Source: Haliotis rufescens (lineage: Eukaryota). From it: DNA of 64,000 nt. The stretch is from positions 32,426,001 through 32,490,000 of the forward strand of contig NW_025963791.1 of the NCBI RefSeq assembly GCF_023055435.1. Direction: 5' to 3'. The notes below the pieces were generated by a model that saw nothing but the letters and a program-made list of their open reading frames with translations, was not told the origin of the DNA and searched no databases. The translations under genes and the position numbers were made by a program. How positions within the stretch are numbered: position 1 is the first letter of the stretch; the number at the start of each line of letters is the position of its first letter. This document shows positions 1-42,285 of the stretch, piece by piece.

Positions 1-1822
1 GATTGGGTACAAGTTATCCAACTTAGAAGTCCCTCTCCATGGTATTTACAAAAGCTTGTACAGTAAATCATATACACATGTACAGGGAAAACAGTGAAGA
101 AAATAAGTGTATAGATAACAAAAGAAACGTACACCGGACAAAAGAGAGACTAGTATATTTACATTAAAGTGTTACCCAAATCTACCTCAACCACAGCTCC
201 CAACAATGACGTACAAATGTGTTAGCGCAGAGGTCACTGTGTGGAACGGGTCCAAACTCGTAGTCATAATGGCATAAGTGGGTGAATGAGTTGGATATAA
301 CACCGCTTTGAACAGTATTTCAGTTATGTCACGTCGTTCATCATAGTGTAAACACACTATATATGTTTAAAATGATTTCTAATATCTCTGATCAAGAGAC
401 CTAAAACTAACTGATATTGTTAATATATTTGTAGGACATTTAGAGTTGACACCATTCAAAAACTGAAAGGTTAGTGTCAAATAAGTTTGAATTTCTCATT
501 TCGGCTATACGCATCTTACGGATTTACTGCAATAGTTCAAATACAAACCTAGCATGCCTACCGGTTCATATATGTGAGGTCCAGCTACAAAGGCATATGT
601 CAGGACTCGTCGTGTCCAGGAGCATCATCAAGCAATTGTTTAAAATAACTTAATCTCCAGTTCGAAGACTTGACGTGGTAATGATGTGAGCGACAGGCAT
701 AGTTCCGAAATGCACACACCACTGTAGCTGCGACACGTTATGCACACAGCCTTAACAAATCCTAATTGCTCAAAACGTTTTGGGACCAATGACATCAAAG
801 ACAGATGATTCAAACCTGGTCACAGGAATACATCATATGTATAATATATACTGCATTTAGGCGCATTGACATATATACGGATTTGTTAACTTAACACTGG
901 ATAAAAATCAGCCAAGCGAAAGCATTAAGGCTTTCATAAACAGTTGGAAGTAAAACTCACAGTGTGAATGCGTCTAAACAGGCGAATAGAAGCAAGCTAG
1001 CAGGGCTGGTTCTAACTTGTCCGTACTAATACAGGCAGAAACTCGTCGATAATGTCCTGGTTGGTACAGGAAGTACATATACAATTTACAAAATCACTAT
1101 CCTTGGTTCTACGATATTTATTGACAAGGAATTCATGGAGAAATATTCTAAATTTACAAAGAGCTCTCATTAGAGCTTTACCTTGTAATATACTTAAATA
1201 TGTTTCTAGTTGTAATACTGATTTGATGCTAGCATAATGCTTGAGAAAGTGTGAAGAGGAAACTTGTTGGTGCTAGTTTTGCTGAAATATATCAAATAAT
1301 CTTTGTTTAAATGTATGGAAAAATAGTTTTTCATTACCAGTGTCTTGTGTGATCCATACAAAGGAAAATCCAGTATTAAATAATATGCTCAGTACTAATA
1401 ATGAAGGTAACTAAAACCCGAAGGAGTTTAAAAATAAGTATACACAAGCAATAAAAATACAATGACATAACAAGTAGACATTCAGCAACACTGATGTCCC
1501 AGGACTTACGTTGTTTCAAACCAACTGCAAGCATACTTATCACATAGTTCGCCTGAGGAGTAATGAACAATCTTAAGTGCGTTTATCATTAAACTTACCC
1601 TGTTGTTTTCACATAGAGGCAGTTTAGGAGCGTGTTTGCTTCACACAGCGTCTCTTGTGCATCATATCCATAGCCTTAGTTTTGCCAATGTTGAAGTTTA
1701 TACTGTTAAGAAATTAAGGAAGTTAAATGTGAATTAATATTAACTTCCTCATCACAATCTTCGTTTTGAGAGAGGAAAAATATGACAGATAAGAATATTT
1801 TATAAAACGCTCGATACAAAAC

Positions 1823-2150
1823 GTGAGGTGAGGTGAAATGGGGTTAAACGACGCTCTTATAGATCAATGTGCATTTACGTGTGTGTATGTGGCTGTTTGT
1901 ACTAGTCCGGGCTAATGCTGATTTCATAGTGCTAGTCAACTGCCGCAGTTTCACATAAATACCCCACTCAGACACAGTATACTGACTAAGAGCCGACCTG
2001 TCCTTGTTTGAGCCCCTTAATGCCGAGCACCAGACAGGGTAACAACAAGTACCATCTTTTAACGTCTTTTGGTATGACGCGGCCGGGGATCGAACCCCGG
2101 ACCTTCCGCTCTGCGGGCGGACGCTTAACCACTAGACCACGCAGGCGGTC
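1823..2150 (-). mobile_element. tRNA-derived SINE family A (also at 7736-8063, 13226-13553 and 19138-19463 in the other units)
   Basis: Minus-strand head with A box (tggtctagtgg) and B box (ggttcgatccc), (cctca)n tail, and homology to the other family A copies. Confidence 0.85.
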
Positions 2151-2726
2151 TTCTGGAGATTTGAACCCGGAGGTTTACCGAGTGATGGAACGTGTTAGCA
2201 ACCAGATAACCTAACCGTCCACATGACGGCACAGAGTGATCAACATGAACTCGTGATAATGAGTGAGTGGGGATGTGCTGCTTACATCTGTTTCGCAGTA
2301 ATATCACTGTCATAAACACATCTCACACCCCATGTGTGAAATCAAACGTGTCATGTTTGATCGGTATGCTTTTGCTTAAAATAATGAAGAGCGGCGAGGT
2401 TTTTCTTAACTGAGTGATTTGTGTGTAACTCCGTTTTGAACAGTATTTCTATTTCATTCCGGATTGTCTGGCTTTGTATGATGCATGTCTTGGACATTTA
2501 CTAATTAAATTTGGCAGAACCCACCAGAAAGGCTATGGTGCTGACCAAACAACTAATCAGATTAATCTGGGATTCGAACCAACGATATAACAAAAACCTT
2601 GTAAAACTGTCCCGAGCCACCCAGTGTCCCTTTTGTAACTCAAAAGGTGTTTATACATACGTTTAACAAAGACATGGTACAGATTGTTAAACCCCTCTAT
2701 AATTACAGACTATATTCTCTTGACAG

Positions 2727-4358
2727 ATACAGATACAAACTCCCAGAATTGTCCTGTGTGTGAACAGCTTGGGGAGACAACTCATATGACCTTCAGGTGC
2801 CATGAGTGTGAGGTAGCTCTCTGTGACAGATGTGTCAAGATGCATCGTGCAAATCCAGCTTCTCGGAGCCATGAAATGTGTGATCGGTCTGGTGAGGTGG
2901 AAGTGAAGAAAAAGAAACGAGTGGTTATGTGTCAAGAGCACAGAGATGAGCAAGTGAAATATCTCTGTAAAGACTGCAACAAGCCACTATGTCAGTCATG
3001 CTCCGTGGTCTACCACAGGAAGTGCGATTCTGTTGTCACACTAGAATCCCAGATGTCACGGATGAAGTCATCTCTGCGCACCAAAGGCCTCACCATACAA
3101 AGAGATCTTAATGACATATCGAAACAGATCGACAAATGCCCAATCGAAAATTAACAAGATGAAAAGAGCTAAACTTTTGGCAACAAAAAAGATTCAGTCA
3201 TCAACAGAGAAGATCATCGCCCGTTTGAAGGAGAAGGAAACGGCACTCATAAAAGAACTGGATGACATTGCAGACACCCAGATCACTGAGTTACAGGCTG
3301 ATGTGAAACAGGCAGAGATTGAGTTGCAGATGTACAAACAGCATGGCGAGTTCATTGACCAGACCCTTGTCTCGGACAGTGAGATGGACCTGTATAAAGC
3401 TTGTCAGGCCTGGGAGTCAGGGGCGGAAAAGGACAGGGTACAAGAAACAGGCAAATCAGAACGAAAACAAATACATAGCGTCAGATTTGTACCAGAATCT
3501 GATACCAGTGAGCGCATTCTTGACGACATGAAACTAGGGAAGCTGGACATCACATACACACAGGGTGAGAACGATGCCATGTCATCACTTTTCCTGTATA
3601 AAACAGTGGACTTCAAGCTAGAGACTGATGAAAAATGTCCATGGCTGAGTGAGGTGACGGTTCTGTTTGTGGGGAATATACTGATATTAGTGGCTTCAGA
3701 CAGAAACAACAAGTTTGTGAAATCTGCCTACACACGTGACGATCAGCCATGTCTCAGTAAACTCGATTTTGATAATTTTACGCATGGTGTATCCCAACTA
3801 AGTGACAATCGGGTTTTGGTAGCTGTTCCTAAGAGTTTTCAAATTGTAACGGCATCCGTAACTCCTGACCTCGAACTGGAGACAACCATTACAGCACAGA
3901 AAGAGTACTACAGTATTGCTGTTCTGAACTCGTCATCATTCCCAGCAAGTTCCTACAGCTGTATTGATATATTAGACATGACTGGTAAGGCCATGCGATC
4001 AATCACTGCCCACAATGACGTGGACCTGTTCAGTTACCCAAACTACATCTGAGTGAACAACAGCGGCCAGGTTCTTGTTTCTGACTGGGACAAGGGATCA
4101 GTAACTTGTCTGACGTCAGAGGGGGATGTTGTGTGGAGATACGTCCACAAGGGGGATCGATCTCTCAGTTACCCTAGTGGTATTACAACTACCAACGAAG
4201 GCGATATCCTCCTTGCAGACAGGGACACAACCACCATAATTCAGCTTGCCGCACCTGGCCAGTTTGTACGAGAACTCATTGCAACAGAGGATGGGATCAA
4301 CGACCCAAATGGTTCCGTTTTTGTTTGTGATGGAAGTACAATAAAACAGTTCATCTGA
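2727..4358 (+). pseudogene. TRIM terminal exon, copy 1 (B-box1, B-box2, coiled coil, NHL-like propeller), disabled
   Basis: Likely acceptor tattctcttgacag at 2726. B-boxes CPVC..CHECEVALCDRCVKMH..H and CQEH..CKDCNKPLCQSC..H. Versus copy 4 it has a +1 frameshift at ~3140 (tgcccaatcg vs tgcaaatcg), TGT>TGA at 4050-4052, and 6-bp and 21-bp in-frame deletions. Confidence 0.9.
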
Positions 4359-4401
4359 TCAACAACACGTTGAATAACCATGTCATATTATAATTATGAT
4401 A

Positions 4402-4612
4402 TGTGTTTGCTAGTGGTTTAACGCCGTACTCAGCAATATTACAGCTATATGACGGCGGTCTGTACATGATCGAGTCTGGACCAGACCAGTGCATCAACCA
4501 AGTCAGCGAGCCTGACCAACCAATCCCTTTAGTCGCCTCTTACGGCATAGTCCCCTTTTACGGCATGCATGGGTTGCTGAAGACCTATTCTACCTCGGAT
4601 CTTCACGGGTCT
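4402..4612 (-). mobile_element. SINE-like family D in the 3' UTR of the exon (also at ~9905, ~15805, ~21743)
   Basis: Reverse complement of the element at 24582-24845 (acccgtgaagatcc...gtaagaggcgactaa...ggcgttaaac). Confidence 0.8.
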
Positions 4613-7600
4613 TATTTTATATGGTGGAGACACTCGTCAATACTAAGACATGTGAACATGTGAACAAAAGTGGGAATTGACTTTACTTTTAATATTTATG
4701 ACCATGTACAGACAGATCCAATTGCCCCATCACAAGGTTGGTTTGTCATTTCCAGATGTGTTCAATGTTGTTTTATTTGTTTGTATCCAGTATGTTATGT
4801 AACTTTAATCGTTTGTTTTGAAAAAAATATATTGATGACTGACAGGTTTTTGTGATTATCATCAATTCACTATGCAGATACACAATGTACTAAGCATATC
4901 GTCTTCATATCTGTTTTATGTATTTTTCTTAACTTCTCACCAAACATTCAATTAAAGTTTATGTTTATGGAAATCCTGTGCATGTAATTCATGTCAAGCC
5001 GTTGCGATTCCCAGTGAAATGATCGCCAGAGTATCTGAATCACCCCGGTTGTAGAGATTTCGAGTTAGCAAAGGTCCACTTGGGGCTCATAATATCACTC
5101 ACTGGTTTGTCTGATCCAGGTTCGATTATTTACAGACCGCCGTCATAAAAATGTAGCTGGAATAATGCTGAGTGCTAAACTACGCATTGACCAGTCACAA
5201 CTAAAAACAACTCTAACCCGATATTGGCGTGTTTGATATATATTTACTAACTCTGGAAATGGTTCAGGTTTATCGTGGTGATGTCGTATTCATTTTACAC
5301 ATGATCAAATGTGCAGTAGGAAATGACATGCATGATTCCCAGATTTTGGCGACGTTTCCGAAACAACCCATCAAAAGAATTGATAAATATATCTTTAACG
5401 TCAAGTTTAACCATTCATAGATCCTGATCCAAATAATTAGGTTTGATAGGGAACGTCATATATGCAATGAGGAACAACAACAGTCATAATAACATAATTG
5501 TACTTTACTCACTGAGCCAAAGGCAGTCACTTGTATGGAGGTATTGTATGCAACCAGTGAGGAATAATCTTAAAGTTAATCACAGGGATGTTTGATATTA
5601 TTCGCAGAAATCAGACGAGAGGCTATTCCTGGTACCAGATTAAAAAACCGAACTGTACATTGCCATCACAGAATGAGACGGACGCCATGAGCATACCTTG
5701 GTACATGCTACCAAACAGAAGCACACCATGGGTACGCTCCATGGAAAACGACCCGAGAAAAGAAGAGTCGTTACCGTTTGGGGAAAACCAGCATGAAATG
5801 AATGGGCGTTCTGAAGGGCAGAATCTGATTTTACGTTTAACACATTAATTTTGTTCCTTAATTTAGTTTAAACATATTTTATTCAGATTGAAATGGATTG
5901 GGTACAAGTTATCCAACTTAGAAGTCCCTCTCCATGGTATTTACAAAAGCTTGTACAGTAAATCATATACACATGTACAGGGAAAACAGTGAAGAAAATA
6001 AGTGTATAGATAACAAAAGAAATGTATACCAGACAAAAGAGAGACTAGTATATTTACATTGAAGTGTTACCCAAATCTACCTCAACCACAGCTCCCAACA
6101 ATGACGTACAAATGTGTTAGCGCAGAGGTCACTGTGTGGAACGGGTCCAAACTCGTAGTCATAATGGCATAAGTGGGTGAATGAGTTGGATATAACACCG
6201 CTTTGAACAGTATTTCAGTTATGTCACGTCGTTCATCATAGTGTAAACACACTATATATGTTTAAAATGATTTCTAATATCTCTGATCAAGAGACCTAAA
6301 ACTAACTGATATTGTTAATATATTTGTAGGACATTTAGAGTTGACACCATTCAAAAACTGAAAGGTTAGTGTCAAATAAGTTTGAATTTCTCATTTCGGC
6401 TATACGCATCTTACGGATTTACTGCAATAGTTCAAATACAAACCTAGCATGCATACCGGTTCATATATGTGAGGTCGAGCTACAAAGGCATATGTCAGGA
6501 CTCGTCGTATCCAGGAACATCATCAAGCAATTGTTTAAAATAACTTAATCTCCAGTTCGAAGACTTGACGTGGTAATGATGTGAGCGACAGGCATAGTTC
6601 CGAAATGCACACACCACTGTAGCTGCGACACGTTATGCACACAGCCTTAACAAATCCTAATTGCTCAAAACGTTTTGGGACCAATGACATCAAAGACAGA
6701 TGATTCAAACCTGGTCACAGGAATACATCATATGTATAATATATATTGCAATTTAGGCGCATTGACATATATACGGATTTGTTAACTTAACACTGGATAA
6801 AAATCAGCCAAGCGAAAGCATTAAGGCTTTCATAAACAGTTGGAAGTAAAACTCACAGTGTGAATGCGTCTAAACAGGCGAATAGAAGCAAGCTAGCAGG
6901 GCTGGTTCTAACTTGTCCGTACTAATACAGGCAGAAACTCGTCGATAATGTCCTGGTTGGTACAGGAAGTACATATACAATTTACAAAATCACTATCCTT
7001 GGTTCTACGATATTTATTGACAAGGAATTCATGGAGAAATATTCTAAATTTACAAAGAGCTCTCATTAGAGCTTTACCTTGTAATATACTTAAATATGTT
7101 TCTAGTTGTAATACTGATTTGATGCTAGCATAATGCTTGAGAAAGTGTGAAGAGGAAACTTGTTGGTGCTAGTTTTGCTGAAATATATCAAATAATCTTT
7201 GTTTAAATGTATGGAAAAATAGTTTTTCATTACCAGTGTCTTGTGTGATCCATACAAAGGAAAATCCAGTATTAAATAATATGCTCAGTACTAATAATGA
7301 AGGTAACTAAAACCCGAAGGAGTTTAAAAATAAGTATACACAAGCAATAAAAATACAATGACATAACAAGTAGACATTCAGCAACACTGATGTTCCAGGA
7401 CTTACGTTGTTTCAAACCAACTGCAAGCATACTTATCACATAGTTCGCCTGAGGAGTAATGAACAATCTTAAGTGCGTTTATCATTAAACTTACCCTGTT
7501 GTTTTCACATAGAGGCAGTTTAGGAGCGTGTTTGCTTCACACAGCGTCTCTTGTGCATCATATCCATAGCCTTAGTTTTGCCAATGTTGAAGTTTATACT

Positions 7601-8229
7601 GTTAAGAAATTAAGGAAGTTAAATGTATGTGATGTGGGCTTTTGAATTAATATTAACTTCCTCATCACAATCTTCGTTTTGAGAGAGGAAAAATATGACA
7701 GATAAGAATATTTTATAAAACGCTCGATACAAAACGTGAGGTGAGGTGAAATGGGGTTAAACGACGCTCTTATAGATCAATGTGCATTTACGTGTGTGTA
7801 TGTGGCTGTTTGTACTAGTCCGGGCTAATGCTGATTTCATAGTGCTAGGCAACTGCCGCAGTTTCACATAAATACCCCACTCAGACACAGTATACTGACT
7901 AAGAGCCGACCTGTCCTTGTTTGAGCCCCTTAATGCCGAGCACCAGACAGGGTAACAACCAGTACCATCTTTTAACGTCTTTTGGTATGACGCGGCCGGG
8001 GATCGAACCCCGGACCTTCCGCTCTGCGGGCGGACGCTTAACCACTAGACCACGGAGGCGGTCTTCTGATGATTTGAACCCGGAGGTTTACCGAGTGATG
8101 GAACGTGTTAGCAACCAGATAACCTAACCGTCCACATGACGGCACAGAGTGATCAACATGAACTCGTGATAATGAGTGAGTGGGGATGTGCTGCTTACAT
8201 CTGTTTCGCAGACTATATTCTCTTGACAG

Positions 8230-9861
8230 ATACAGATACAAACTCCCAGAATTGTCCTGTGTGTGAACAGCTTGGGGAGACAACTCATATGACCTTCTGG
8301 TGCCATGAGTGTGAGGTAGCTCTCTGTGACAGATGTGTCAAGATGCATCGTGCAAATCCAGCTTCTCGGAGCCATGAAATGTGTGATCGGTCTGGTGAGG
8401 TGGAAGTGAAGAAAAAGAAACGAGTGGTTATGTGTCAAGAGCACAGAGATGAGCAAGTGAAATATCTCTGTAAAGACTGCAACAAGCCACTGTGTCAGTC
8501 ATGCTGCGTGGTCTACCACAGGAAGTGCGATTCTGTTGTCACACTAGAATCCCAGATGTCACGGATGAAGTCATCTCTGCGCACCAAAGGCCTCACCATA
8601 CAAAGAGATCTTAATGACATATCGAAACAGATCGACAAATGCCCAATCGAAAATTAACAAGATGAAAAGAGCTAAACTTTTGGCAACAAAAAAGATTCAG
8701 TCATCAACAGAGAAGATCATCGCCCGTTTGAAGGAGAAGGAAACGGCACTCATAAAAGAACTGGATGACATTGCAGACACCCAGATCACTGAGTTACAGG
8801 CTGATGTGAAACAGGCAGAGATTGAGTTGCAGATGTACAAACAACATGGCGAGTTCATTGACCAGACCCTTGTCTCGGACAGTGACATGGACCTGTATAA
8901 AGCTTGTCAGGCCTGGGAGTCAGGGGCGGAAAAGGACAAGGTACAAGAAACAGGCAAATCAGAACGAAAACAAATACATAGCGTCAGATTTGTACCAGAA
9001 TCTGATACCAGTGAGCGCATTCTTGACGACATGAAACTAGGGAAGCTGGACATCACATACACACAGGGTGAGAACGATGCCATGTCATCACTTTTCCTGT
9101 ATAAAACAGTGGACTTCAAGCTAGAGACTGATGAAAAATGTCCATGGCTGAGTGAGGTGACGGTTCTGTTTGTGGGGAATATACTGATATTAGTGGCTTC
9201 AGACAGAAACAACAAGTGTGTGAAATCTGCCTACACACGTGACGATCAGCCATGTCTCAGTAAACTCGATTTTGATAATTTTACGCATGGTGTATCCCAA
9301 CTAAGTGACAATCGGGTTTTGGTAGCTGTTCCTAAGAGTTTTCAAATTGTAACGGCATCCGTAACTCCTGACCTCGAACTGGAGACAACCATTACAGCAC
9401 AGAAAGAGTACTACAGTATTGCTGTTCTGAACTCGTCATCATTCGCAGCAAGTTCCTACAGCTGTATTGATATATTAGACATGACTGGTAAGGCCATGCG
9501 ATCAATCACTGCCCACAATGACGTGGACCTGTTCAGTTACCCAAACTACATCTGAGTGAACAACAGCGGCCAGGTTCTTGTTTCTGACTGGGACAAGGGA
9601 TCAGTAACTTGTCTGACGTCAGAGGGGGATGTTGTGTGGAGATACGTCCACAAGGGGGATCGATCTCTCAGTTACCCTAGTGGTATTACAACTACCAACG
9701 AAGGCGATATCCTCCTTGCAGACAGGGACACAACCACCATAATTCAGCTTGCCGCACCTGGCCAGTTTGTACGAGAACTCATTGCAACAGAGGATGGGAT
9801 CAACGACCCAAATGGTTCCGTTTTTGTTTGTGATGGAAGTACAATAAAACAGTTCATCTGA
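8230..9861 (+). pseudogene. TRIM terminal exon, copy 2, disabled
   Basis: Same frameshift (~8642), same nonsense codon (9553-9555) and same deletions as copy 1. A 410-bp upstream deletion ends at ~8211. Confidence 0.9.
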
Positions 9862-12800
9862 TCAACAACACGTTGAATAACAATGTCATATTATAATTAT
9901 GATATGTGTTTGCTAGTGGTTTAACGCCGTACTCAGCAATATTACAGCTATATGACGGCGGTCTGTACATGATCGAGTCTGGACCAGACCAGTGCATCAA
10001 CCAAGTCAGCGAGCCTGACCAACCAATCCCTTTAGTCGCCTCTTACGGCATAGTCCCCTTTTACGGCATGCATGGGTTGCTGAAGACCTATTCTACCTCG
10101 GATCTTCACGGGTCTTATTTTATATGGTGGAGACACTCGTCAATACTAAGACATGTGAACATGTGAACAAAAGTGGGAATTGACTTTACTTTTAATATTT
10201 ATGACCATGTACAGACAGATCCAATTGCCCCATCACAAGGTTGGTTTGTCATTTCCAGATGTGTTCAATGTTGTTTTATTTGTTTGTATCCAGTATGTTA
10301 TGTAACTTTAATCGTTTGTTTTGAAAAAAATATATTGATGACTGACAGGTTTTTGTGATTATCATCAATTCACTATGCAGATACACAATGTACTAAGCAT
10401 ATCGTCTTCATATCTGTTTTATGTATTTTTCTTAACTTCTCACCAAACATTCAATTAAAGTTTATGTTTATGGAAATCCTATCCTGTGCATGTAATTCAT
10501 GTCAAGCCGTTGCGATTCCCAGTGAAATGATCGCCAGAGTATCTGAATCACCCCGGTTGTAGAGATTTCGAGTTAGCAAAGGTCCACTTGGGGCTCATAA
10601 TATCACTCACTGGTTTGTCTCATCCAGGTTCGATTATTTACAGACCGCCGTCATATAAATGTAGCTGGAATAATGCTGAGTGCTAAACTACGCATTGACC
10701 AGTCACAACTAAAAACAACTCTAACCCGATATTGGCGTGTTTGATATATATTTACTAACTCTGGAAATGGTTCAGGTTTATCGTGGTGATGTCGTATTCA
10801 TTTTACACATGATCAAATGTGCAGTAGGAAATGACATGCATGATTCCCAGATTTTGGCGACGTTTCCGAAACAACCCATCAAAAGAATTGATAAATATAT
10901 CTTTAACGTCAAGTTTAACCATTCATAGATCCTGATCCAAATAACTAGGTTTGATAGGGAACGTCATATATGCAATGAGGAACAACAACAGTCATAATAA
11001 CATAATTGTACTTTACTCACTGAGCCAAAGGCAGTCACTTGTATGGAGGTATTGTATGCAACCAGTGAGGAATAATCTTAAAGTTAATCACAGGGATGTT
11101 TGATATTATTCGCAGAAATCAGACGAGAGGCTATTCCTGGTACCAGATTAAAAAACCGAACTGTACATTGCCATCACAGAATGAGACGGACGCCATGAGC
11201 ATACCTTGGTACATGCTACCAAACAGAAGCACACCATGGGTACGCTCCATGGAAAACGACCCGAGAAAAGAAGAGTCGTTACCGTTTGGGGAAAACCAGC
11301 ATGAAATGAATGGGCGTTCTGAAGGGCAGAATCTGATTTTACGTTTAACACATTAATTTTGTTCCTTAATTTAGTTTAAACATATTTTATTCAGATTGAA
11401 ATGGATTGGGTACAAGTTATCCAACTTAGAAGTCCCTCTCCATGGTATTTACAAAAGCTTGTACAGTAAATCATATACACATGTACAGGGAAAACAGTGA
11501 AGAAAATAAGTGTATAGATAACAAAAGAAATGTATACCAGACAAAAGAGAGACTAGTATATTTACATTGAAGTGTTACCCAAATCTACCTCAACCACAGC
11601 TCCCAACAATGACGTACAAAAGTGTTAGGGCAGAGGTCACTGTGTGGAACGGGTCCAAACTCGTAGTCATAATGGCATAAGTGGGTGAATGAGTTGGATA
11701 TAACACCGCTTTGAACAGTATTTCAGTTATGTCACGTCGTTCATCATAGCGTAAACACACTATATATGTTTAAAATGATTTCTAATATCTCTGATCAAGA
11801 GACCTAAAACTAACTGATATTGTTAATATATTTGTAGGACATTTAGAGTTGACACCATTCAAAAACTGAAAGGTTAGTGTCAAATAAGTTTGAATTTCTC
11901 ATTTCGGCTATACGCATCTTACGGATTTACTGCAATAGTTCAAATACAAACCTAGCATGCATACCGGTTCATATATGTGAGGTCCAGCTACAAAGGCATA
12001 TGTCAGGACTCGTCGTGTCCAGGAGCATCATCAAGCAATTGTTTAAAATAACTTAATCTCCAGTTCGAAGACTTGACGTGGTAATGATGTGAGCGACAGG
12101 CATAGTTCCGAAATGCACACACCACTGTAGCTGCGACACGTTATGCACACAGCCTTAACAAATCCTAATTGCTCAAAACGTTTTGGGACCAATGACATCA
12201 AAGACAGATGATTCAAACCTGGTCACAGGAATACATCATATGTATAATATATACTGCATTTAGGCGCATTGACATATATACGGATTTGTTAACTTAACAC
12301 TGGATAAAAATCAGCCAAGCGAAAGCATTAAGGCTTTCATAAACAGTTGGAAGTAAAACTCACAGTGTGAATGCGTCTAAACAGGCGAATAGAAGCAAGC
12401 TAGCAGGGCTGGTTCTAACTTGTCCGTACTAATACAGGCAGAAACTCGTCGATAATGTCCTGGTTGGTACAGGAAGTACATATACAATTTACAAAATCAC
12501 TATCCTTGGTTCTACGATATTTATTGACAAGGAATTCATGGAGAAATATTCTAAATTTACAAAGAGCTCTCATTAGAGCTTTACCTTGTAATATACTTAA
12601 ATATGTTTCTAGTTGTAATACTGATTTGATGCTAGCATAATGCTTGAGAAAGTGTGAAGAGGAAACTTGTTGGTGCTAGTTTTGCTGAAATATATCAAAT
12701 AATCTTTGTTTAAATGTATGGAAAAATAGTTTTTCATTACCAGTGTCTTGTGTGATCCATACAAAGGAAAATCCAGTATTAAATAATATGCTCAGTACTA

Positions 12801-14129
12801 ATAATGAAGGTAACTAAAACCCGAAGGAGTTTAAAAATAAGTATACACAAGCAATAAAAATACAATGACATAACAAGTAGACATTCAGCAACACTGATGT
12901 CCCAGGACTTACGTTGTTTCAAACCAACTGCAAGCATACTTATCACATAGTTCGCCTGAGGAGTAATGAACAATCTTAAGTGCGTTTATCATTAAACTTA
13001 CCCTGTTGTTTTCACATAGAGGCAGTTTAGGAGCGTGTTTGCTTCACACAGCGTCTCTTGTGCATCATATCCATAGCCTTAGTTTTGCCAATGTTGAAGT
13101 TTATACTGTTAAGAAATTAAGGAAGTTAAATGTCAATTAATATTAACTTCCTCATCACAATCTTCGTTTTGAGAGAGGAAAAATATGACAGATCAGAATA
13201 TTTTATAAAACGCTCGATACAAAACGTGAGGTGAGGTGAAATGGGGTTAAACGACGCTCTTATAGATCAATGTGCATTTACGTGTGTGTATGTGGCTGTT
13301 TGTACTAGTCCGGGCTAATACTGATTTCATAGTGCTAGTCAACTGCCGCAGTTTCACATAAATACCCCACTCAGACACAGTATACTGACTAAGAGCCGAC
13401 CTGTCCTTGTTTGAGCCCCTTAATGCCGAGCACCAGACAGGGTAACAACAAGTACCATCTTTTAACGTCTTTTGGTATGACGCGGCCGGGGATCGAACCC
13501 CGGACCTTCCGCTCTGCGGGCGGACGCTTAACCACTAGACCACGCAGGCGGTCTTCTGGAGATTTGAACCCGGAGGTTTACCGAGTGATGGAACGTGTTA
13601 GCAACCAGATAACCTAACCGTCCACATGACGGCACAGAGTGATCAACATGAACTCGTGATAATGAGTGAGTGGGGATGTGCTGCTTACATCTGTTTCGCA
13701 GTAATATCACTGTCATAAACACATCTCACACCCCATGTGTGAAATCAAACGTGTCATGTTTGATCGGTATGCTTTTGCTTAAAATAATGAAGAGCGGCGA
13801 GGTTTTTCTTAACTGAGTGATTTGTGTGTAACTCCGTTTTGAACAGTATTTCTATTTCATTCCGGATTGTCTGGCTTTGTATGATGCATGTCTTGGACAT
13901 TTACTAATTAAATTTGGCAGAACCCACCAGAAAGGCTATGGTGCTGACCAAACAACTAATCAGATTAATCTGGGATTCGAACCAACGATATAACAAAAAC
14001 CTTGTAAAACTGTCCCGAGCCACCCAGTGTCCCTTTTGTAACTCAAAAGGTGTTTATACATACGTTTAACAAAGACATGGTACAGATTGTTAAACCCCTC
14101 TATAATTACAGACTATATTCTCTTGACAG

Positions 14130-15761
14130 ATACAGATACAAACTCCCAGAATTGTCCTGTGTGTGAACAGCTTGGGGAGACAACTCATATGACCTTCAGG
14201 TGCCATGAGTGTGAGGTAGCTCTCTGTGACAGATGTGTCAAGATGCATCGTGCAAATCCAGCTTCTCGGAGCCATGAAATGTGTGATCGGTCTGGTGAGG
14301 TGGAAGTGAAGAAAAAGAAACGAGTGGTTATGTGTCAAGAGCACAGAGATGAGCAAGTGAAATATCTCTGTAAAGACTGCAACAAGCCACTGTGTCAGTC
14401 ATGCTCCGTGGTCTACCACAGGAAGTGCGATTCTGTTGTCACACTAGAATCCCAGATGTCACGGATGAAGTCATCTCTGCGCACCAAAGGCCTCACCATA
14501 CAAAGAGATCTTAATGACATATCGAAACAGATCGACAAATGCCCAATCGAAAATTAACAAGATGAAAAGAGCTAAACTTTTGGCAACAAAAAAGATTCAG
14601 TCATCAACAGAGAAGATCATCGCCCGTTTGAAGGAGAAGGAAACGGCACTCATAAAAGAACTGGATGACATTGCAGACACCCAGATCACTGAGTTACAGG
14701 CTGATGTGAAACAGGCAGAGATTGAGTTGCAGATGTACAAACAACATGGCGAGTTCATTGACCAGACCCTTGTCTCGGACAGTGACATGGACCTGTATAA
14801 AGCTTGTCAGGCCTGGGAGTCAGGGGCGGAAAAGGACAAGGTACAAGAAACAGGCAAATCAGAACGAAAACAAATACATAGCGTCAGATTTGTACCAGAA
14901 TCTGATACCAGTGAGCGCATTCTTGACGACATGAAACTAGGGAAGCTGGACATCACATACACACAGGGTGAGAACGATGCCATGTCATCACTTTTCCTGT
15001 ATAAAACAGTGGACTTCAAGCTAGAGACTGATGAAAAATGTCCATGGCTGAGTGAGGTGACGGTTCTGTTTGTGGGGAATATACTGATATTAGTGGCTTC
15101 AGACAGAAACAACAAGTGTGTGAAATCTGCCTACACACGTGACGATCAGCCATGTCTCAGTAAACTCGATTTTGATAATTTTACGCATGGTGTATCCCAA
15201 CTAAGTGACAATCGGGTTTTGGTAGCTGTTCCTAAGAGTTTTCAAATTGTAACGGCATCCGTAACTCCTGACCTCGAACTGGAGACAACCATTACAGCAC
15301 AGAAAGAGTACTACAGTATTGCTGTTCTGAACTCGTCATCATTCGCAGCAAGTTCCTACAGCTGTATTGATATATTAGACATGACTGGTAAGGCCATGCG
15401 ATCAATCACTGCCCACAATGACGTGGACCTGTTCAGTTACCCAAACTACATCTGAGTGAACAACAGCGGCCAGGTTCTTGTTTCTGACTGGGACAAGGGA
15501 TCAGTAACTTGTCTGACGTCAGAGGGGGATGTTGTGTGGAGATACGTCCACAAGGGGGATCGATCTCTCAGTTACCCTAGTGGTATTACAACTACCAACG
15601 AAGGCGATATCCTCCTTGCAGACAGGGACACAACCACCATAATTCAGCTTGCCGCACCTGGCCAGTTTGTACGAGAACTCATTGCAACAGAGGATGGGAT
15701 CAACGACCCAAATGGTTCCGTTTTTGTTTGTGATGGAAGTACAATAAAACAGTTCATCTGA
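14130..15761 (+). pseudogene. TRIM terminal exon, copy 3, disabled
   Basis: Same frameshift (~14542), same nonsense codon (15453-15455) and same deletions as copies 1-2. Confidence 0.9.
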
Positions 15762-18700
15762 TCAACAACACGTTGAATAACCATGTCATATTATAATTAT
15801 GATATGTGTTTGCTAGTGGTTTAACGCCGTACTCAGCAATATTACAGCTATATGACGGCGGTCTGTACATGATCGAGTCTGGACCAGACCAGTGCATCAA
15901 CCAAGTCAGCGAGCCTGACCAACCAATCCCTTTAGTCGCCTCTTACGGCATAGTCCCCTTTTACGGCATGCATGGGTTGCTGAAGACCTATTCTACCTCG
16001 GATCTTCACGGGTCTTATTTTATATGGTGGAGACACTCGTCAATACTAAGACATGTGAACATGTGAACAAAAGTGGGAATTGACTTTACTTTTAATATTT
16101 ATGACCATGTACAGACAGATCCAATTGCCCCATCACAAGGTTGGTTTGTCATTTCCAGACGTGTTCAATGTTGTTTTATTTGTTTGTATCCAGTATGTTA
16201 TGTAACTTTAATCGTTTGTTTTGAAAAAAATATATTGATGACTGACAGGTTTTTGTGATTATCATCAATTCACTATGCAGATACACAATGTACTAAGCAT
16301 ATCGTCTTCATATCTGTTTTATGTATTTTTCTTAACTTCTCACCAAAAATTCAATTAAAGTTTATGTTTATGGAAATCCTGTGCATGTAATTCATGTCAA
16401 GCCGTTGCGATTCCCAGTGAAATGATCGCCAGAGTATCTGAATCACCCCGGTTGTAGAGATTTCGAGTTAGCAAAGGTCCACTTGGGGCTCATAATATCA
16501 CTCACTGGTTTGTCTGATCCAGGTTCGATTATTTACAGACCGCCGTCATATAAATGTAGCTGGAATAATGCTGAGTGCTAAACTACGCATTGACCAGTCA
16601 CAACTAAAAACAACTCTAACCCGATATTGGCGTGTTTGATATATATTTACTAACTCTGGAAATGGTTCAGGTTTATCGTGGTGATGTCGTATTCATTTTA
16701 CACATGATCAAATGTGCAGTAGGAAATGACATGCATGATTCCCAGATTTTGGCGACGTTTCCGAAACAACCCATCAAAAGAATTGATAAATATATCTTTA
16801 ACGTCAAGTTTAACCATTCATAGATCCTGGTCCAAATAATTAGGTTTGATAGGGAACGTCATATATGCAATGAGGAACAACAACAGTCATAATAACATAA
16901 TTGTACTTTACTCACTGAGCCAAAGGCAGTCACTTGTATGGAGGTATTGTATGCAACCAGTGAGGAATAATCTTAAAGTTAATCACAGGGATGTTTGATA
17001 TTATTCGCAGAAATCAGACGAGAGGCTATTCCTGGTACCAGATTAAAAAACCGAACTGTACATTGCCATCACAGAATGAGACGGACGCCATGAGCATACC
17101 TTGGTACATGCTACCAAACAGAAGCACACCATGGGTACGCTCCATGGAAAACGACCCGAGAAAAGAAGAGTCGTTACCGTTTGGGGAAAACCAGCATGAA
17201 ATGAATGGGCGTTCTGAAGGGCAGAATCTGATTTTACGTTTAACACATTAATTTTGTTCCTTAATTTAGTTTAAACATATTTTATTCAGATTGAAATGGA
17301 TTGGGTACAAGTTATCCAACTTAGAAGTCCCTCTCCATGGTATTTACAAAAGCTTGTACAGTAAATCATATACACATGTACAGGGAAAACAGTGAAGAAA
17401 ATAAGTGTATAGATAACAAAAGAAATGTATACCAGACAAAAGAGAGACTAGTATATTTACATTGAAGTGTTACCCAAATCTACCTCAACCACAGCTCCCA
17501 ACAATGACGTACAAAAGTGTTAGGGCAGAGGTCACTGTGTGGAACGGGTCCAAACTCGTAGTCATAATGGCATAAGTGGGTGAATGAGTTGGATATAACA
17601 CCGCTTTGAACAGTATTTCAGTTATGTCACGTCGTTCATCATAGTGTAAACACACTATATATGTTTAAAATGATTTCTAATATCTCTGATCAAGAGACCT
17701 AAAACTAACTGATATTGTTAATATATTTGTAGGACATTTAGAGTTGACACCATTCAAAAACTGAAAGGTTAGTGTCAAATAAGTTTGAATTTCTCATTTC
17801 GGCTATACGCATCTTACGGATTTACTGCAATAGTTCAAATACAAACCTAGCATGCATACCGGTTCATATATGTGAGGTCCAGCTACAAAGGCATATGTCA
17901 GGACTCGTCGTGTCCAGGAGCATCATCAAGCAATTGTTTAAAATAACTTAATCTCCAGTTCGAAGACTTGACGTGGTAATGATGTGAGCAACAGGCATAG
18001 TTCCGAAATGCACACACCACTGTAGCTGCGACACGTTATGCACACAGCCTTAACAAATCCTAATTGCTCAAAACGTTTTGGGACCAATGACATCAAAGAC
18101 AGATGATTCAAACCTGGTCACAGGAATACATCATATGTATAATATATACTGCATTTAGGCGCATTGACATATATACGGATTTGTTAACTTAACACTGGAT
18201 AAAAATCAGCCAAGCTAAAGCATTAAGGCTTTCATAAACAGTTGGAAGTAAAACTCACAGTGTGAATGCGTCTAAACAGGCGAATAGAAGCAAGCTAGCA
18301 GGGCTGGTTCTAACTTGTCCGTACTAATACAGGCAGAAACTCGTCGATAATGTCCTGGTTGGTACAGGAAGTACATATACAATTTACAAAATCACTATCC
18401 TTGGTTCTACGATATTTATTGACAAGGAATTCATGGAGAAATATTCTAAATTTACAAAGAGCTCTCATTAGAGCTTTACCTTGTAATATACTTAAATATG
18501 TTTCTAGTTGTAATACTGATTTGATGCTAGCATAATGCTTGAGAAAGTGTGAAGAGGAAACTTGTTGGTGCTAGTTTTGCTGAAATATATCAAATAATCT
18601 TTGTTTAAATGTATGGAAAAATAGTTTTTCATTACCAGTGTCTTGTGTGATCCATACAAAGGAAAATCCAGTATTAAATAAAATGCTCAGTACTAATAAT

Positions 18701-20041
18701 GAAGGTAACTAAAACCCGAAGGAGTTTAAAAATAAGTATACACAAGCAATAAAAATACAATAACATAACAAGTAGACATTCAGCAACACTGGTGTCCCAG
18801 GACTTACGTTGTTTCAAACCAACTGCAAGCATACTTATCACATAGTTCGCTTGAGGAGTAATGAACAATCTTAAGTGCGTTTATCTTTAAACTTACCCTG
18901 TTGTTTTCACATAGAGGCAGTTTAGGAGCGTGTTTGCTTCACACAGCGTCTCTTGTGCACCATATCCATAGCCTTACTTTTGCCAATGTTGAAGTTTATA
19001 CTGTTAAGAAATTAAGGAAGTTAAATGTATGTGATGTGGGCTTTTGAATTGATATTAACTTCCTCATCACAATCTTCGTTTTGAGAGAGGAAAAATATGA
19101 CAGATCAGAATATTTTATAAAACGCTCGATACAAAACGTGAGGTGAGGTGAAATGGGGTTAAACGACGCTCTTATAGATCAATGTGCATTTACGTGTGTA
19201 TGTGGCTGTTTGTACTAGTCCGGGCTAATGCTGATTTCATAGTGCTAGTCAACTGCCGCAGTTTCACATAAATACCCCACTCTGACACAGTATACTGACT
19301 AAGAGCCGACCTGTCCTTGTTTTAGCCCCTTAATGCCGAGCACAAGGCAGGGTAACAACAAGTACCATCTTTTAACGTATTTTGGTATGACGCGGCCGGG
19401 GATCGAACCCCGGACCTTCCGCTCTGCGGGCGGACGCTTTACCACTAGACCACGGAGGCGGTCTTCTGGAGATTTGAACCCGGAGGTTTACCGAGTGATG
19501 GAACGTGTTAGCCACCAGATAACCTAACCGTCCACATGACGGCACAGAGTGATCAACATGAACTTGTGATAATGACTGAGTGGGGATGTGCTGCTTACAT
19601 CTGTTTCGCAGTAATATCACTGTCATAAACACATCTCACACCCCATGTGTGAAATCAAACATGTGTCATGTTTGATCGGTATGCTTTCGCTTAAAATAAT
19701 GGAGAGCGGCGAGGTTTTTCTTAACTGAGTGATTTGTGTGTAACTCCGTTTTGAACAGTATTTCTATTTCATTCCGGATTGTCTGGCTTTGTATGATGCA
19801 TGTCTTGGACATTTACTAATTAAATTTGGCAGAACCCACCAGAAAGGCTATGGTGCTGACCAAACAACTAATCAGATTAATCTGAGATTCGAACCCACGA
19901 TATAACAAAAACATTGTAAAACTGTCCCGAGCCACCCAGTGTCCCTTTTGTAACTCGAAAGGTGTTTATACATACGTTTAGCACAGACATGGTAAAGATT
20001 GTTAAACCCCTCTATAATTACAGTCTATATTCTCTTGACAG

Positions 20042-21699
20042 ATACAGATACAAACTCCCAGAATTATCCTGTGTGTGAACAGCTTGGGGAGACAACTCAG
20101 GTGACCTTCTGGTGCCATGAGTGTGAGGTAGCTCTCTGTGACAGATGTGTCAAGATGCATCGTGCAAATCCAGCTTCTCGGAGCCATGAAATGTGTGATC
20201 GGTCTGGTGAGGTGGAACTGAAGAAAAAGAAACGAGTGCTTATGTGTCAAGAGCACAGAGATGAGCAAGTGAAATATCTCTGTAAAGACTGCAACAAGCC
20301 ACTGTGTCAGTCATGCTCCGTGGTCTACCACAGGAAGTGCGATTCTGTTGTCACACTAGAATCCCAGATGTCACGGATGAAGTCATCTCTGCGCACCAAA
20401 GGCCTCACCATACAAAGTGATCTTAATGACATATCGAAACAGATCGACAAATGCAAATCGAAAATTAACAAGATGAAAAGAGCTAAACTTTTGGCAACAA
20501 AAAAGATTCAGTCATCAACAGAGAAGATCATCGCCCGTTTGAAGGAGAAGGAAACGGCACTCATAAAAGACCTGGATGACATTGCAGACACACAGATCAC
20601 TGAGTTACAGGCTGATGTGAAACAGGCAGAGATTGAGTTGCAAATGTACAAACAACATGGCGAGTTCATTGACCAGACCCTTGTCTCGGACAGTGAGATG
20701 GACCTGTATAAAGCTTGTGAGGCCTGGGAGTCAGGGGCGGAAGAGGACAGGGTACAAGAAACAGGCAAATCAGAACGAAAACAAATACATAGCGTCAGAT
20801 TTGTACCAGAATCTGATACCAGTGAGCGCATTCTTGACGACTTGAAACTAGGGAAGCTGGACATCACATACACACAGGGTGAGACCGATGCCATGTCATC
20901 ACTTTTCCTGTATAAAACAGTGGACTTCAAGCGAGAGACTGATGAAAAATGTCCATGGCTGAGTGAGGTGACGGTTCTGTTTGTGGGGGATATACATGTA
21001 CTGACATTAGAGGCTTCAGACAGAAACAACAAGTGTGTGAAATCTGCCTACACACGTGACGATCAGCCATGTCTCAGTAAACTCGATTTTGATAATTTTA
21101 CGCATGGTGTATCCCAACTTAGTGACAATCGGGTTTTGGTAGCTGTTCCTAAGAGTTTTCAAATTGTAACGGCATCCGTAACTCCTGACCTCGAACTGGA
21201 GACAACCATTACAACACAGAAAGAGTACTACAGTATTGCTGTTCTGAACTCGTCATCATTCGCAGCAAGTTCCTACAGCTGTATTGATATATTAGACATG
21301 ACTGGTAAGGCCATCCGATCATTCACTGCCCACAATGACGTGGACCTGTTCAGTTACCCAAACTACATCTGTGTGAACAACAGCGGCCAGGTTCTTGTTT
21401 CTGACTGGGACAAGGGATCAGTAACTTGTCTGACGTCAGAGGGGGATGTTGTGTGGAGATACGTCCCCAAGGGGGATCGATCTCTCAGTTACCCTAGTGG
21501 TATTACAACTACCAACGAAGGCGATATCCTCCTTGCAGACAGGGACACAACCACCATAATTCAGCTTGCCGCACCTGGCCAGTTTGTACGAGAACTCATT
21601 GCAACAGAGGATGGGATCAACGACCCTGTTGGGGTGTATGCCGATAGAAATGGTTCCGTTTTTGTTTGTGATGAACGTACAATAAAACAGTTCATCTGA
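20042..21699 (+). CDS. TRIM terminal exon, copy 4: open reading frame (B-box1, B-box2, CC, NHL-like propeller; TRIM56/TRIM71/TRIM2-3-like), RING exon not in window
   Basis: Uninterrupted ORF 19999..21699 with a phase-1 acceptor ttctcttgacag at 20041. NHL-like blades (FSYPNYICVNNSGQVLVSDW, LSYPSGITTTNEGDILLAD, INDPVGVYADRNGSVFVCD). The first B-box1 Cys is Tyr (NYPVC). Confidence 0.8.
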
Positions 21700-24070
21700 T
21701 CAACAACACGTTGAATAACCATGTCATATTATAATTATGATATGTGTTTCTTAGTTGTTTAACGCCGTACTCAGCAATATTACAGCTATATGACGGCGGT
21801 CTGTACATGATCGAGTCTGGACCAGACCAGTGCATCAACCAAGTCAGCGAGCCTGACCACCCAATCCCTTTAGTCGCCTCTTACGGCATAGTCGCCTTTT
21901 ACGGCATGCATGGGTTGCTGAAGACCTATTCTACCTCGGATCTTCACGGGTCTTATTTTATATGGTGGAGACACTCGTCAATACTAAGACATGTGAACAT
22001 GTGAACAAAAGTGGGAATTGACTTTACTTTTAATATTTATGACCATGTACAGACAGATCCAATTGCCCCATCACAAGGTTGGTTTGTCATTTCCAGACGT
22101 GTTCAATGTTGTTTTATTTGTTTGTATCCAGTATGTTATGTAACTTTAATCGTTTGTTTTGAAAAAATTATATTGATGACTGACAGGTTTTTGTGATTAT
22201 CATCAATTCACTATGCAGATACACAATGTACAAAGCATATTGTCTTCATATCTGTTTTATGTATTTTTCTTAACTTCTCACCAAAAATTCAATTAAAGTT
22301 TATGTTTATGGAAATCCTGTGCATGTAATTCATTTCAAGCCGTTGCGATTCCCAGTGAAATGATCGCCAGAGTATCTGAATCACCCCGGTTGTAGAGATT
22401 TCGAGTTAGCAAAGGTCCACTTGGGGCTCATAATATCACTCACTGGTTTGTCTGATCCAGGTTCGATTATTTACAGACCGCCGTCATATAAATGTAGCTG
22501 GAATAATGCTGAGTGCTAAACTACGCATTGACCAGTCACAACTAAAAACAACTCTAACCCGATATTGGCGTGTTTGATATATATTTACCAACTCTGGAAA
22601 TGGTTCAGGTTTATCGTGGTGATGTCGTATTCATTTTACACATGATCAAATGTGCAGTAGGAAATGACATGCATGATTCCCAGATTTTGGCGACGTTTCC
22701 GAAACAACCCATCAAAAGAATTGATAAATATATCTTTAACGTCAAGTTTAACCATTCATAGATCCTGATCCAAATAATTAGGTTTGATAGGGAACGTCAT
22801 ATATGCAATGAGGAACAACAACAGTCATAATAGCATAATTGTACTTTACTCACTGAGCCAAAGGCAGTCACTTGTATGTAGGTAATGTATGCAACCAGTG
22901 AGGAATAATCTTAAAGTTAATCACAGGGATGTTTGATATTATTCGCAGAAATCAGACGAGAGGCTATTCCTGGTTCCAGATTAGAAACCGAACTGTACAT
23001 TGCCATCACAGAATGAGACGGACGCCATGAGCATACCTTGGTACATGCTACCAAACAGAAGCACACCATGGGTACGCTCCATGGAGAACGACCCGAGAAA
23101 AGAAGAGTCGTTACGATTTGGAGAAAACCAGCATGAAATGAATGGGCCTTCTGAAGAGACAGAATCTGATTTTACGTTTAACACATTTATTGTGTTCCTT
23201 AATTTAGTTTAAACATATTTTATTCAGATTGAAATGGATTGGGAACAAGTTATCCAACTTAGAAGTCCCTCTCCATGGTATTTACAAAAGCTTGTACAGT
23301 AAATCATATACACATGTACAGGGAAAACAGTAAAGAAAATAAGTGTATAGATAACAAAACAAATGTACAACAGACAAAAGAGAGACTAGTATATTAACTT
23401 TAAAGTGTTACCAAAATCTCTTTGCATGACTTATAAACATTTGCATTACCTCAAAGATATGTTGAATTTCGAGTTCCTTCATTTGTCAGCATATCTTACA
23501 CACTGTCTTGTTATTTGTTGCAGAAGTTATAGCTGGATGAGGGGAGTGATCCTATTAGGCGGTGTAATATGCTCTTATGTGATATAAACCCTGAAGAAGA
23601 AATTTGTAACATTTTGCGTATTTTGCGCTCTGTCACGACAGCCTGTTCAACGATCCTTGCATATCAGTATCAGGAAGCCTGAGAAGCACTTCATAACAAG
23701 CAAGCAGCCATTTCATCGAGTCTGCCAATCCGATTCTCTTTAGATTGCGAGTATGGAATTCCGGAAACCTATCCTTCCCCACAATGATCATGAACATTGG
23801 CACAATTTCACGTGATACACATGTTAAAAAATATCGTAAGTCTCTATGGTAGGTCTGTCATAGCGTTAAGTGTGCTTGGTGCACATTGTGAACAATAAAC
23901 TACAGATCGGATTCATTTACCACTTGTGTTTCATTTCAAGCAAAGCATTATTGGTATTGGTTACCTCCCTGGATACAGTTATGAAACAAAATCGGTATGC
24001 AATAGTGCGCTGGGTAGTTGCGATAACCGTGAACCCTTTCAGCCGTCGTTTGTCATGAGCTCCTGTATGT

Positions 24071-25096: not shown

Positions 25097-25357
25097 CATG
25101 CTGACACAAAGCTTGAAGAGATTGAGATGCAGATGTACAGACAACACTGTGAGTTCATTGACCAGGCATTGGTATCGGACTGTGAGATGTCGGGAGCTGA
25201 AGAGTTGGGGGATGTCAGTGACACAGACACAACAGAAACACGCCGAATAGATGACATCAGGTTTACACCAGACGCTGAAAGTCCTACTGGGACGATTGAC
25301 ATCTCATTTAAAGATAGGAGGAAGTGTTTGCCGACTCCGTGTGGCTCATACAATTAA
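25097..25357 (+). pseudogene. Degenerate TRIM relic (coiled-coil end/linker only)
   Basis: Encodes KLEEIEMQMYRQHCEFIDQALVSDCEM..SGAEELGDVSDTDT..RRIDDIRFTPD, near-identical to 52125-52330 but with internal deletions. Confidence 0.85.
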
Positions 25358-32612: not shown

Positions 32613-32972
32613 TTCTGATTCTGGTAATTGCAACTATTCCAAAAATGCATTTGATATTGTAGTTACTTAGCTAACTTGTGTCGTTATGTTTGGAGTATAT
32701 GCCTATAAACCTAAACATTATGAGATATTAAATATATACATTGTTCATGCTTCCAGGGAGCGGATGCCTATTAATATTTTTTAACATTTGACCTGTAAAC
32801 AAACATTTTGAATAATTAATCTTTTGTTAATTTAAAGTGGAATCGTCAAATGTGGTTATTTACATTAACATTAATCACCTCTTTTTCTTTCTTTTCAGTT
32901 GTCCAGTTTCTTCTCTAACATGCTGACGATTATTAGCAAATATTTCAATTGAAACTTAACACTGGTTCAATC

Positions 32973-42178: not shown

Positions 42179-42191
42179 TATGTATGTGTGT

Positions 42192-42229
<38 letters not shown>

Positions 42230-42285
42230 CTGTGCGTATGTGTGTCTGTGCGCGTGTGTGTCTGTGCGCGTGTGTGTGTGTGTGT
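42179..42285. repeat. (GT)n-rich microsatellite
   Basis: Seen directly. The paralogous position is the N gap at 57300-57455. Confidence 0.95.

What the first reader, a model, noticed from the sequence alone, without database searches (positions are those of the whole stretch)
184..23419. Array of RING-less terminal-exon cassettes: one upstream RING exon with many alternative last exons?
Seen: the repeat unit runs from upstream of exon 2 (junction at ~183/184) through exon 2 and its 3' flank, and I find no RING exon in it. Each exon has the same phase-1 acceptor as exon 2 of intact TRIM-A and TRIM-B. Inference: a single RING exon upstream of the window could splice to any cassette (constant 5' exon, variable 3' exons). 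The only open copy is the most distal one, so it needs skipping of at least three dead exons, each followed by an ATTAAA, or its own promoter. The latter would give a RING-less, possibly dominant-negative TRIM.
Basis: partly seen in the sequence, partly recalled or inferred. Interest (0 to 1): 0.7.

Follow-up and report, generated by a model that had tools for sequence, protein, structure and literature searches.

The report
Spare last-exon copies behind abalone TRIM
A red-abalone TRIM ubiquitin-ligase gene has its last exon copied four extra times in a row, but the spliced RNA found joins its single RING exon to the first, intact copy, so the extra copies are likely decaying by-products of a duplication accident rather than a set of alternative last exons.

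Summary
The array is real, and the predicted single RING exon lies 4.6 kb upstream of the window. Between it and the window sits a fifth, open exon-2 copy (copy 0), so no skipping is needed. Spliced RNA contigs from three red-abalone-labelled runs (two studies) match copy 0 without one difference; one shows the RING-to-copy-0 joint directly. All four annotated isoforms use copy 0. Copies 1-3 share a frameshift, a stop and a 21-bp deletion. Copy 4 is open but has lost a B-box cysteine found in 95 of 95 relatives. The '21-bp copy-4 marker' is also in copy 0. Each unit is an inverted piece of a Toll-like-receptor 5' flank, a chimeric SINE and the gene's 3' part: likely a tandem duplication with templated insertion, then unequal crossing-over. 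Low-level skipping is not excluded: contigs drop rare variants, one annotated isoform uses an acceptor that only copies 1-4 have here, and some animals carry extra copies without the frameshift. Earlier scan notes describe TRIM decay elsewhere in this genome, not this array. Interest 0.22.

The parts
1..183 (+). End of the 3' flank of copy 0. The working gene lies upstream of the window (G000:C13): RING exon ATG at 32421367, phase-1 donor after 32421664, exon 2 copy 0 at 32422790-32424459, ATTAAA at 32425056
   Evidence: RNA contigs; protein P0001/P0100-P0102
177..184 (.). Junction J1 between the TRIM 3' flank and the inserted TLR-flank segment, with 7-base microhomology to the donor; repeated at 6078/6079, 11586/11587, 17481/17482
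   Evidence: bridged by DNA contigs in runs X1 and X8
184..1822 (-). Segment X: inverted copy of the 5' flank of a TLR gene (91% to C13:32361015-32362955, just upstream of a TLR ORF); holds a conserved splice donor on the minus strand at 1598/1599, likely the end of a TLR 5'-UTR exon. Repeated in every unit
1823..2151 (+). Chimeric SINE-like repeat = junction J2: 5' part follows the TLR-flank copy, 3' part follows the copy in the TRIM intron. Also at 7736, 13226, 19138. 'SINE' is my label from its dispersed repeats and size; no library search
   Evidence: alignment; for dispersed copies
2152..2726 (+). 3' part of the TRIM intron with three in-frame AG acceptors (exon would begin at 2709, 2727 or 2733). 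Copy 2 lacks 410 bp of it (joint at 8211)
2727..4358 (+). Exon-2 copy 1 (B-box1, B-box2, coiled coil, NHL): broken by 1-base insertion, TGA and 21-bp deletion
8230..9861 (+). Exon-2 copy 2: same three lesions
14130..15761 (+). Exon-2 copy 3: same three lesions
20042..21699 (+). Exon-2 copy 4: open frame; B-box1 first Cys to Tyr (20066), Val to Glu in an NHL strand (21011), 6-bp insertion (20993-20998); not seen in RNA contigs
4951..4956 (+). ATTAAA in each 3' flank (also 10454, 16354, 22292); RNA contigs end 12-23 bases before the equivalent site of copy 0
23237..23419 (+). End of the array; from 23420 the sequence is not part of the unit and is likely the original continuation of the 3' flank

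Best explanation
This is an ordinary RING / B-box-coiled-coil-NHL TRIM gene whose RING exon is spliced to the nearest, intact last exon (copy 0), followed by four promoter-less and RING-less tandem copies of its 3' part that are likely decaying duplicates. Likely origin (inferred): a copying event left the 3' flank at a 7-base microhomology, copied about 1.8 kb of a TLR 5' flank in reverse, and returned into the TRIM intron through a shared SINE, re-copying exon 2. Unequal crossing-over and gene conversion then likely multiplied and mixed the unit; copies 1-3 descend from one broken copy. Transcripts likely end at copy 0's ATTAAA, so downstream copies are seldom reached. Shown: anatomy, both junctions, RING-to-copy-0 splice, lesions. 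Inferred: repair mechanism, order of events, termination site, lack of function of copy 4.
For: One RING exon and an open copy 0 upstream. RNA contigs of X15, X16, X18 match copy 0 with 0 other letters over 1434, 297+1117 and 1430 bases, a stretch where copies 1-4 differ from copy 0 at 34, 32, 32 and 38 columns. The loose end of the X15 contig is the RING exon's 3' end (table 7). At 35 of 35 shown sites on copy 4 all X15 depth carries the copy-0 letter. 4 of 4 annotated isoforms have the copy-0 body; 0 of 10 Met-start products of copies 1, 2 and 4 are in the collection. Copy 4 changes residues kept in 95 of 95 (Cys), 93 of 96 (Val) and 91 of 95 (Gln) relatives. A copy stays free of stops by chance in 47% of trials with 17 random substitutions and 21% with 35 (no indels modelled). 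J1 microhomology and chimeric SINE. In 314 kb, 13 of 14 RING exons have their own exon 2 next; orphan and broken pieces also occur.
Against: Contigs drop rare variants, so minor use of copies 1-4 would be invisible; 30 and 70 rows of the variant tables were not shown. Annotated isoform X3 (XP_048248541.1) uses the junction that needs the middle AG, which copy 0 lacks in this assembly (GG) and copies 1-4 have. Copy 0 is not pristine: it has rare residues too (Phe where 98 of 98 relatives have Tyr; 9 of 23 differing sites favour the copy-4 residue, 14 the copy-0 residue), and its RING exon lacks the AG before the ATG that 11 of 11 paralogues have. The array persists in other animals and apparently in organism B, and the main extra-copy contigs of X1 and X14 lack the frameshift. 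The best donor for X is only 91% alike, against about 98% between copies, so the true donor is not in this assembly or the history is more complex. dN/dS values rest on 3-11 synonymous changes and decide nothing.
Confidence: 0.8

Rival explanations
1. Young alternative-last-exon system: the RING exon is spliced mainly to copy 0 but sometimes, or in some haplotypes, to an open downstream copy, giving TRIM isoforms with different B-box/NHL parts.
For: Splice phase fits all copies. Copy 0 lost the middle AG that copies 1-4 keep, and annotated isoform X3 uses that junction. Copy 4 is open. Extra-copy contigs without the frameshift in X1 and X14. dN/dS of copy 4 against copies 1-3 is 1.4-2.3, which could be read as diversifying selection.
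Against: No extra-copy allele in the shown rows or pieces of three organism-A RNA runs. X3 has a 100% copy-0 body and is as easily an allele of copy 0 with the AG; organism B's RNA contig also joins there. RNA contigs stop just before copy 0's ATTAAA (weak hint). Three of four extra copies are dead, and copy 4 lacks an invariant zinc ligand. Copies are 98% alike, so little diversity would be gained.
Confidence: 0.12
2. The inserted TLR 5' segment brings a promoter into each unit. It would fire antisense into the preceding exon-2 copy (regulatory RNA) or, bidirectionally, give a RING-less copy-4 product.
For: X holds a splice donor conserved in 4 of 4 aligned TLR-flank copies and so probably a TLR first exon. 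One 169-base RNA? contig of X16, depth 2.7, is identical to X and 96% to the donor. Low cover near the presumed exon in X15.
Against: No start site was mapped; contigs give no strand; the low cover may come from the TLR genes or from DNA. A RING-less copy-4 product would start at the first Met inside B-box1 (20155) and is not in the collection.
Confidence: 0.06
3. The array is an assembly artefact (uncollapsed or mis-joined haplotypes).
For: Copies 1-3 differ by only 0.1-0.6%. Exact copy number was not checked with long reads.
Against: J1 is bridged with 0 differences by DNA contigs of X1 and X8, from two studies (one may be the assembly's source); X8 carries the frameshift at depth 45 against about 20 for copy-0 alleles. 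Five distinguishable copies exceed two haplotypes; copy 2 has its own 410-bp deletion.
Confidence: 0.02

Closest known systems
Cycle of templated insertion (tandem duplication with a copied foreign segment), PMC7025897 (passages read)
   Same: A copied segment from elsewhere is inserted and the path returns upstream on the host chromosome, re-replicating a host segment; inverted junction; the paper notes such events duplicate exons.
   Different: Described there as somatic events in human cancers. Here it is germ-line, one junction is a SINE-SINE crossover, and the unit was amplified further.
Birth-and-death TRIM clusters with pseudogenes and incomplete copies, PMC2533329 (passages read)
   Same: Clustered TRIM paralogues with lineage-specific duplication, stops and frameshifts; RING, two B-boxes, coiled coil, NHL end.
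   Different: Here only the 3' part was duplicated, behind one RING exon. The paper treats mammals and model invertebrates; mollusc clusters are not in the passages read.
Drosophila mod(mdg4) and lola: common 5' exons with many variable 3' exons (PMC6237743, 10.1101/132027; search listing and start of abstract only)
   Same: Layout: one 5' domain exon ahead of a row of potential last exons.
   Different: There 20-30 or more isoforms are expressed; mod(mdg4) uses trans-splicing and promoters for the variable exons. Here only the first copy is seen in RNA, 3 of 4 extra copies are broken and all are about 98% alike.

Membership tests
TRIM/RBCC with NHL end (copy-0 gene) | RING, B-box(es), coiled coil in order | tested here: met
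   P0001 (100% to copy 0) carries PF00097 and PF00643; B-box hits on the sister copy 4 and RING hits on neighbouring RING exons. Coiled coil inferred from position and a weak PML_CC hit in the paralogue at 51539 only.
TRIM/RBCC with NHL end (copy-0 gene) | C-terminal NHL repeats | tested here: met
   PF01436 on P0001 and on copy 4, 42.4 bits, cut-off 20.
TRIM/RBCC with NHL end (copy-0 gene) | E3 ligase activity | not testable with these tools
   Name comes from annotation only.
Constant-5'/variable-3' locus (lola, mod(mdg4) type) | One shared 5' exon in phase with several last exons | tested here: met
   One RING exon, five phase-1 exon-2 copies.
Constant-5'/variable-3' locus (lola, mod(mdg4) type) | Transcripts join the shared exon to more than one last exon | tested here: not met
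   Only copy 0 in contigs of 3 organism-A RNA? runs and in 4 of 4 annotated isoforms. Rare isoforms are below what contigs show; isoform X3's junction is ambiguous.
Constant-5'/variable-3' locus (lola, mod(mdg4) type) | Variable exons intact and diversified | tested here: not met
   3 of 4 extra copies broken; copy 4 lacks an invariant Cys; copies about 98% alike.
Constant-5'/variable-3' locus (lola, mod(mdg4) type) | Own promoters or trans-splicing of variable exons | not testable with these tools
   Contigs give no starts or strand; no raw mRNA reads were offered.
Cycle of templated insertion | Inserted segment is a copy of a template that stays in place elsewhere | tested here: met
   X matches the TLR flank about 63 kb upstream, inverted, at 91%; the exact donor is not in the assembly.
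Cycle of templated insertion | Path returns upstream on the host and re-copies a host segment | tested here: met
   J2 returns into the intron SINE 4.2 kb before J1.
Cycle of templated insertion | Formed in one event | not testable with these tools
   Two successive events (insertion, then SINE-SINE unequal crossover) give the same junctions; an unduplicated haplotype would be needed.

The most novel reading that the evidence does not exclude
A constant-RING / variable-last-exon immune gene caught at birth: a polymorphic array in which some haplotypes hold several open B-box-NHL cassettes that carry the better splice acceptor, are reached by read-through of copy 0's ATTAAA, and are each flanked by a captured, inverted TLR first exon that ties their sense or antisense transcription to immune signalling.
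Probability: 0.1. Interest if true: 0.65.

Novelty: new member of a known kind. Interest (0 to 1): 0.22.

Why it matters
As read here it is a clean germ-line example of how an invertebrate TRIM/TLR cluster makes partial gene copies: microhomology template switch, SINE-mediated return, then unequal crossing-over. It also shows how a splice-site loss is buffered by a neighbouring in-frame AG. It warns that RING-less exon arrays at a window edge need the upstream DNA. If some haplotypes do splice the RING exon to several open cassettes, it would be a young, segregating test case for how lola-like variable-last-exon loci arise.

Tried and rejected
no RNA holder is listed on record; the runs laid are RNA by guess, and the spliced joint is what marks X15 as RNA. 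Segment X has almost no cover in the four RNA? runs; uncovered parts are not counted as evidence. Copy number from contig depth was not attempted beyond a rough ratio, since bubbles are collapsed. dN/dS was tried and is too thin: 3-11 synonymous changes per informative pair, and organism B shares alleles with different copies at different sites, so branches cannot be polarised. My first guess that the third AG (exon start 2733) is the main acceptor, from paralogue alignment, was dropped: organism-A contigs join at the first AG, organism B at the middle one. Exact look-ups of 10 products of copies 1, 2 and 4 found none; exact-match absence is weak. No further near-identical exon-2 copy turned up elsewhere in the genome (40 of 179 candidates scored). 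Paper searches listed nothing on this locus or on alternative last exons in mollusc TRIMs; subscription journals are mostly not held. PMC9334734 passages only count 22 TRIM genes in Aplysia. No supplements were read. No fold or complex was run: they would not decide the question.
Full report
Setting. The window is G000:C13:32426001-32490000. The protein of the gene studied is 100% identical to a Haliotis rufescens record on a contig of the same length. Coordinates upstream of the window are given as negative window positions (genome position = 32426000 + position).

Observation. Self-comparison shows four units ending at 6078, 11586, 17481 and 23419, and the same end at 183. Each holds one large exon for B-box1, B-box2, a predicted coiled coil and NHL repeats. 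No RING is in the array. Copies 1-3 share a 1-base insertion, a TGA and a 21-bp deletion; copy 2 also lacks 410 bp of intron; copy 4 is open. Copies 1-3 differ from each other by 0.1-0.6% and from copy 4 by about 2%.

What lies upstream. I fetched 140 kb upstream and 110 kb downstream. One RING exon lies at -4633 to -4336 with a phase-1 donor, and none further upstream in the fetched DNA. A fifth exon-2 copy (copy 0, -3210 to -1541) follows it and is open. Copy 0 also has the proposed copy-4 marker with one mismatch.

What is transcribed. Four runs, RNA by guess, were laid on the RING exon, copy 0 and the first junction. In the three organism-A runs (two studies) contigs match copy 0 with no other letter over 1434, 297+1117 and 1430 bases; copies 1-4 differ from copy 0 at 32-38 columns there. 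Each has 37-71 letters that do not fit the intron; in X15 these are the end of the RING exon (table 7). The joint is at the first of three in-frame AGs. The middle AG is GG in copy 0 and AG in copies 1-4; organism B's contig joins at the middle one. Laid on copy 4, X15 shows the copy-0 letter at full depth at 35 of 35 shown sites, with 70 rows of the table not shown. Contigs end 12-23 bases before copy 0's ATTAAA in three of four runs (two studies); no DNA run was laid there, so this is a weak hint of termination. NCBI's four isoforms all have the copy-0 body and differ only in acceptor or start. Limits: contigs drop rare variants, and isoform X3 uses the middle-AG junction, which could be an allele of copy 0 or a mis-assigned splice to copies 1-4.

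Is copy 4 kept by selection? Of 23 substituted sites with a commoner residue among 98 relatives, 14 favour copy 0 and 9 favour copy 4. Copy 4's changes include the first B-box1 cysteine (Cys in 95 of 95) and an NHL-strand valine (93 of 96). Copy 0 has odd residues too (Phe for Tyr, 98 of 98). An exon of this size stays stop-free in 47% of trials with 17 random changes, so an open frame needs no selection. dN/dS is 0.65 for copy 0 against copy 4 and 1.4-2.3 for copy 4 against copies 1-3, on very few synonymous changes. No contig with copy 4's 6-bp insertion appeared in any of the 4 runs laid on it, DNA included, so this form may be rare or collapsed.

How the unit arose. The first 1.8 kb of each unit (X) is not TRIM intron. 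It is a 91% inverted copy of the flank that ends about 85 bases before the acceptor of a TLR coding exon 63 kb upstream; two more relatives lie at -37 kb and -18 kb. At J1 the TRIM flank and the donor share seven bases. At J2 the unit's SINE follows the donor's SINE in its 5' part, including three deletions, and the TRIM intron's SINE in its 3' part. This matches a tandem duplication with a templated insertion, a 'cycle' in the terms of PMC7025897 (passages read), though two successive events would look the same. Later unequal crossing-over is inferred from the near identity of copies 1-3, and conversion from organism B sharing alleles with different copies at different sites.

Is the array real? 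J1 is bridged without a difference by DNA contigs of X1 and X8 (two studies; either might be the assembly's source). X8 carries the frameshift; the main contigs of X1 and X14 over that site do not. X14 (organism B) has X-type pieces 97-99% alike, but no J1-bridging piece is among the rows shown. The array is real and its content varies.

Context. In 314 kb there are 14 RING exons, 17 exon-2 copies and several fragments; 13 of the 14 RING exons are followed by their own exon 2. Broken and orphan pieces are common, as in other TRIM clusters (PMC2533329, passages).

Comparison. The layout resembles lola and mod(mdg4) (listing and abstract starts only), but the defining feature, use of several last exons, was tested and not met at the depth that contigs allow. 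It works like a partial gene duplication decaying behind a working gene. Five paper searches listed no paper on this locus. The scan had no note near this place; notes on other pieces of the genome describe decaying or recombined TRIM copies, unchecked here.

Verdict. Observation partly confirmed; interpretation partly supported. Partial tandem duplication with templated insertion and decay 0.80; minor or haplotype-specific alternative last exon 0.12; captured-promoter function 0.06; artefact 0.02. Interest 0.22.

Noticed in passing
L021:1037-2459 (window -5963 to -4541): The RING exon lacks the AG before its ATG that 11 of 11 paralogues have. RNA contigs of three runs run unspliced for 1.3 kb into the ATG; that stretch holds 29 ATGs. 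Annotated isoform X2 starts at Met6. The working gene may itself be poorly translated.
   Followed up: partly
L021:3790-3814 (window -3210 to -3186): Three in-frame acceptors; loss of the middle AG in copy 0 is buffered by the AG 18 bases upstream, adding six residues.
   Followed up: yes
window 56200-60116: Two RING exons (56200, 58041) precede one broken exon 2 (58710); annotated isoforms of LOC124127979 start at either, and others of that locus look like chimeras of neighbouring genes. Real mix-and-match splicing or mis-mapped reads: untested.
   Followed up: partly
window 32937-35444: Open single-exon TLR frame (LRR + TIR, 835 codons). Three more TLR frames lie upstream at about -62900, -36800 and -11800, interleaved with the TRIM cluster.
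   Followed up: no
window 25097-25309: Short relic of a TRIM exon 2 with an internal deletion.
   Followed up: no
window about 26060-27210: Broken frame that looks like a Tc1-type transposase, interrupted by a short repeat; label from recall on reading, no search run.
   Followed up: no
window -19400 to -17900 (L002): A third copy of the TLR 5' flank with no TLR frame directly after it.
   Followed up: partly
window 41603-48263 and 56739-63998: A 7-kb duplication (about 92-95%) of the TRIM gene at 42790; the second copy's exon 2 is broken.
   Followed up: no
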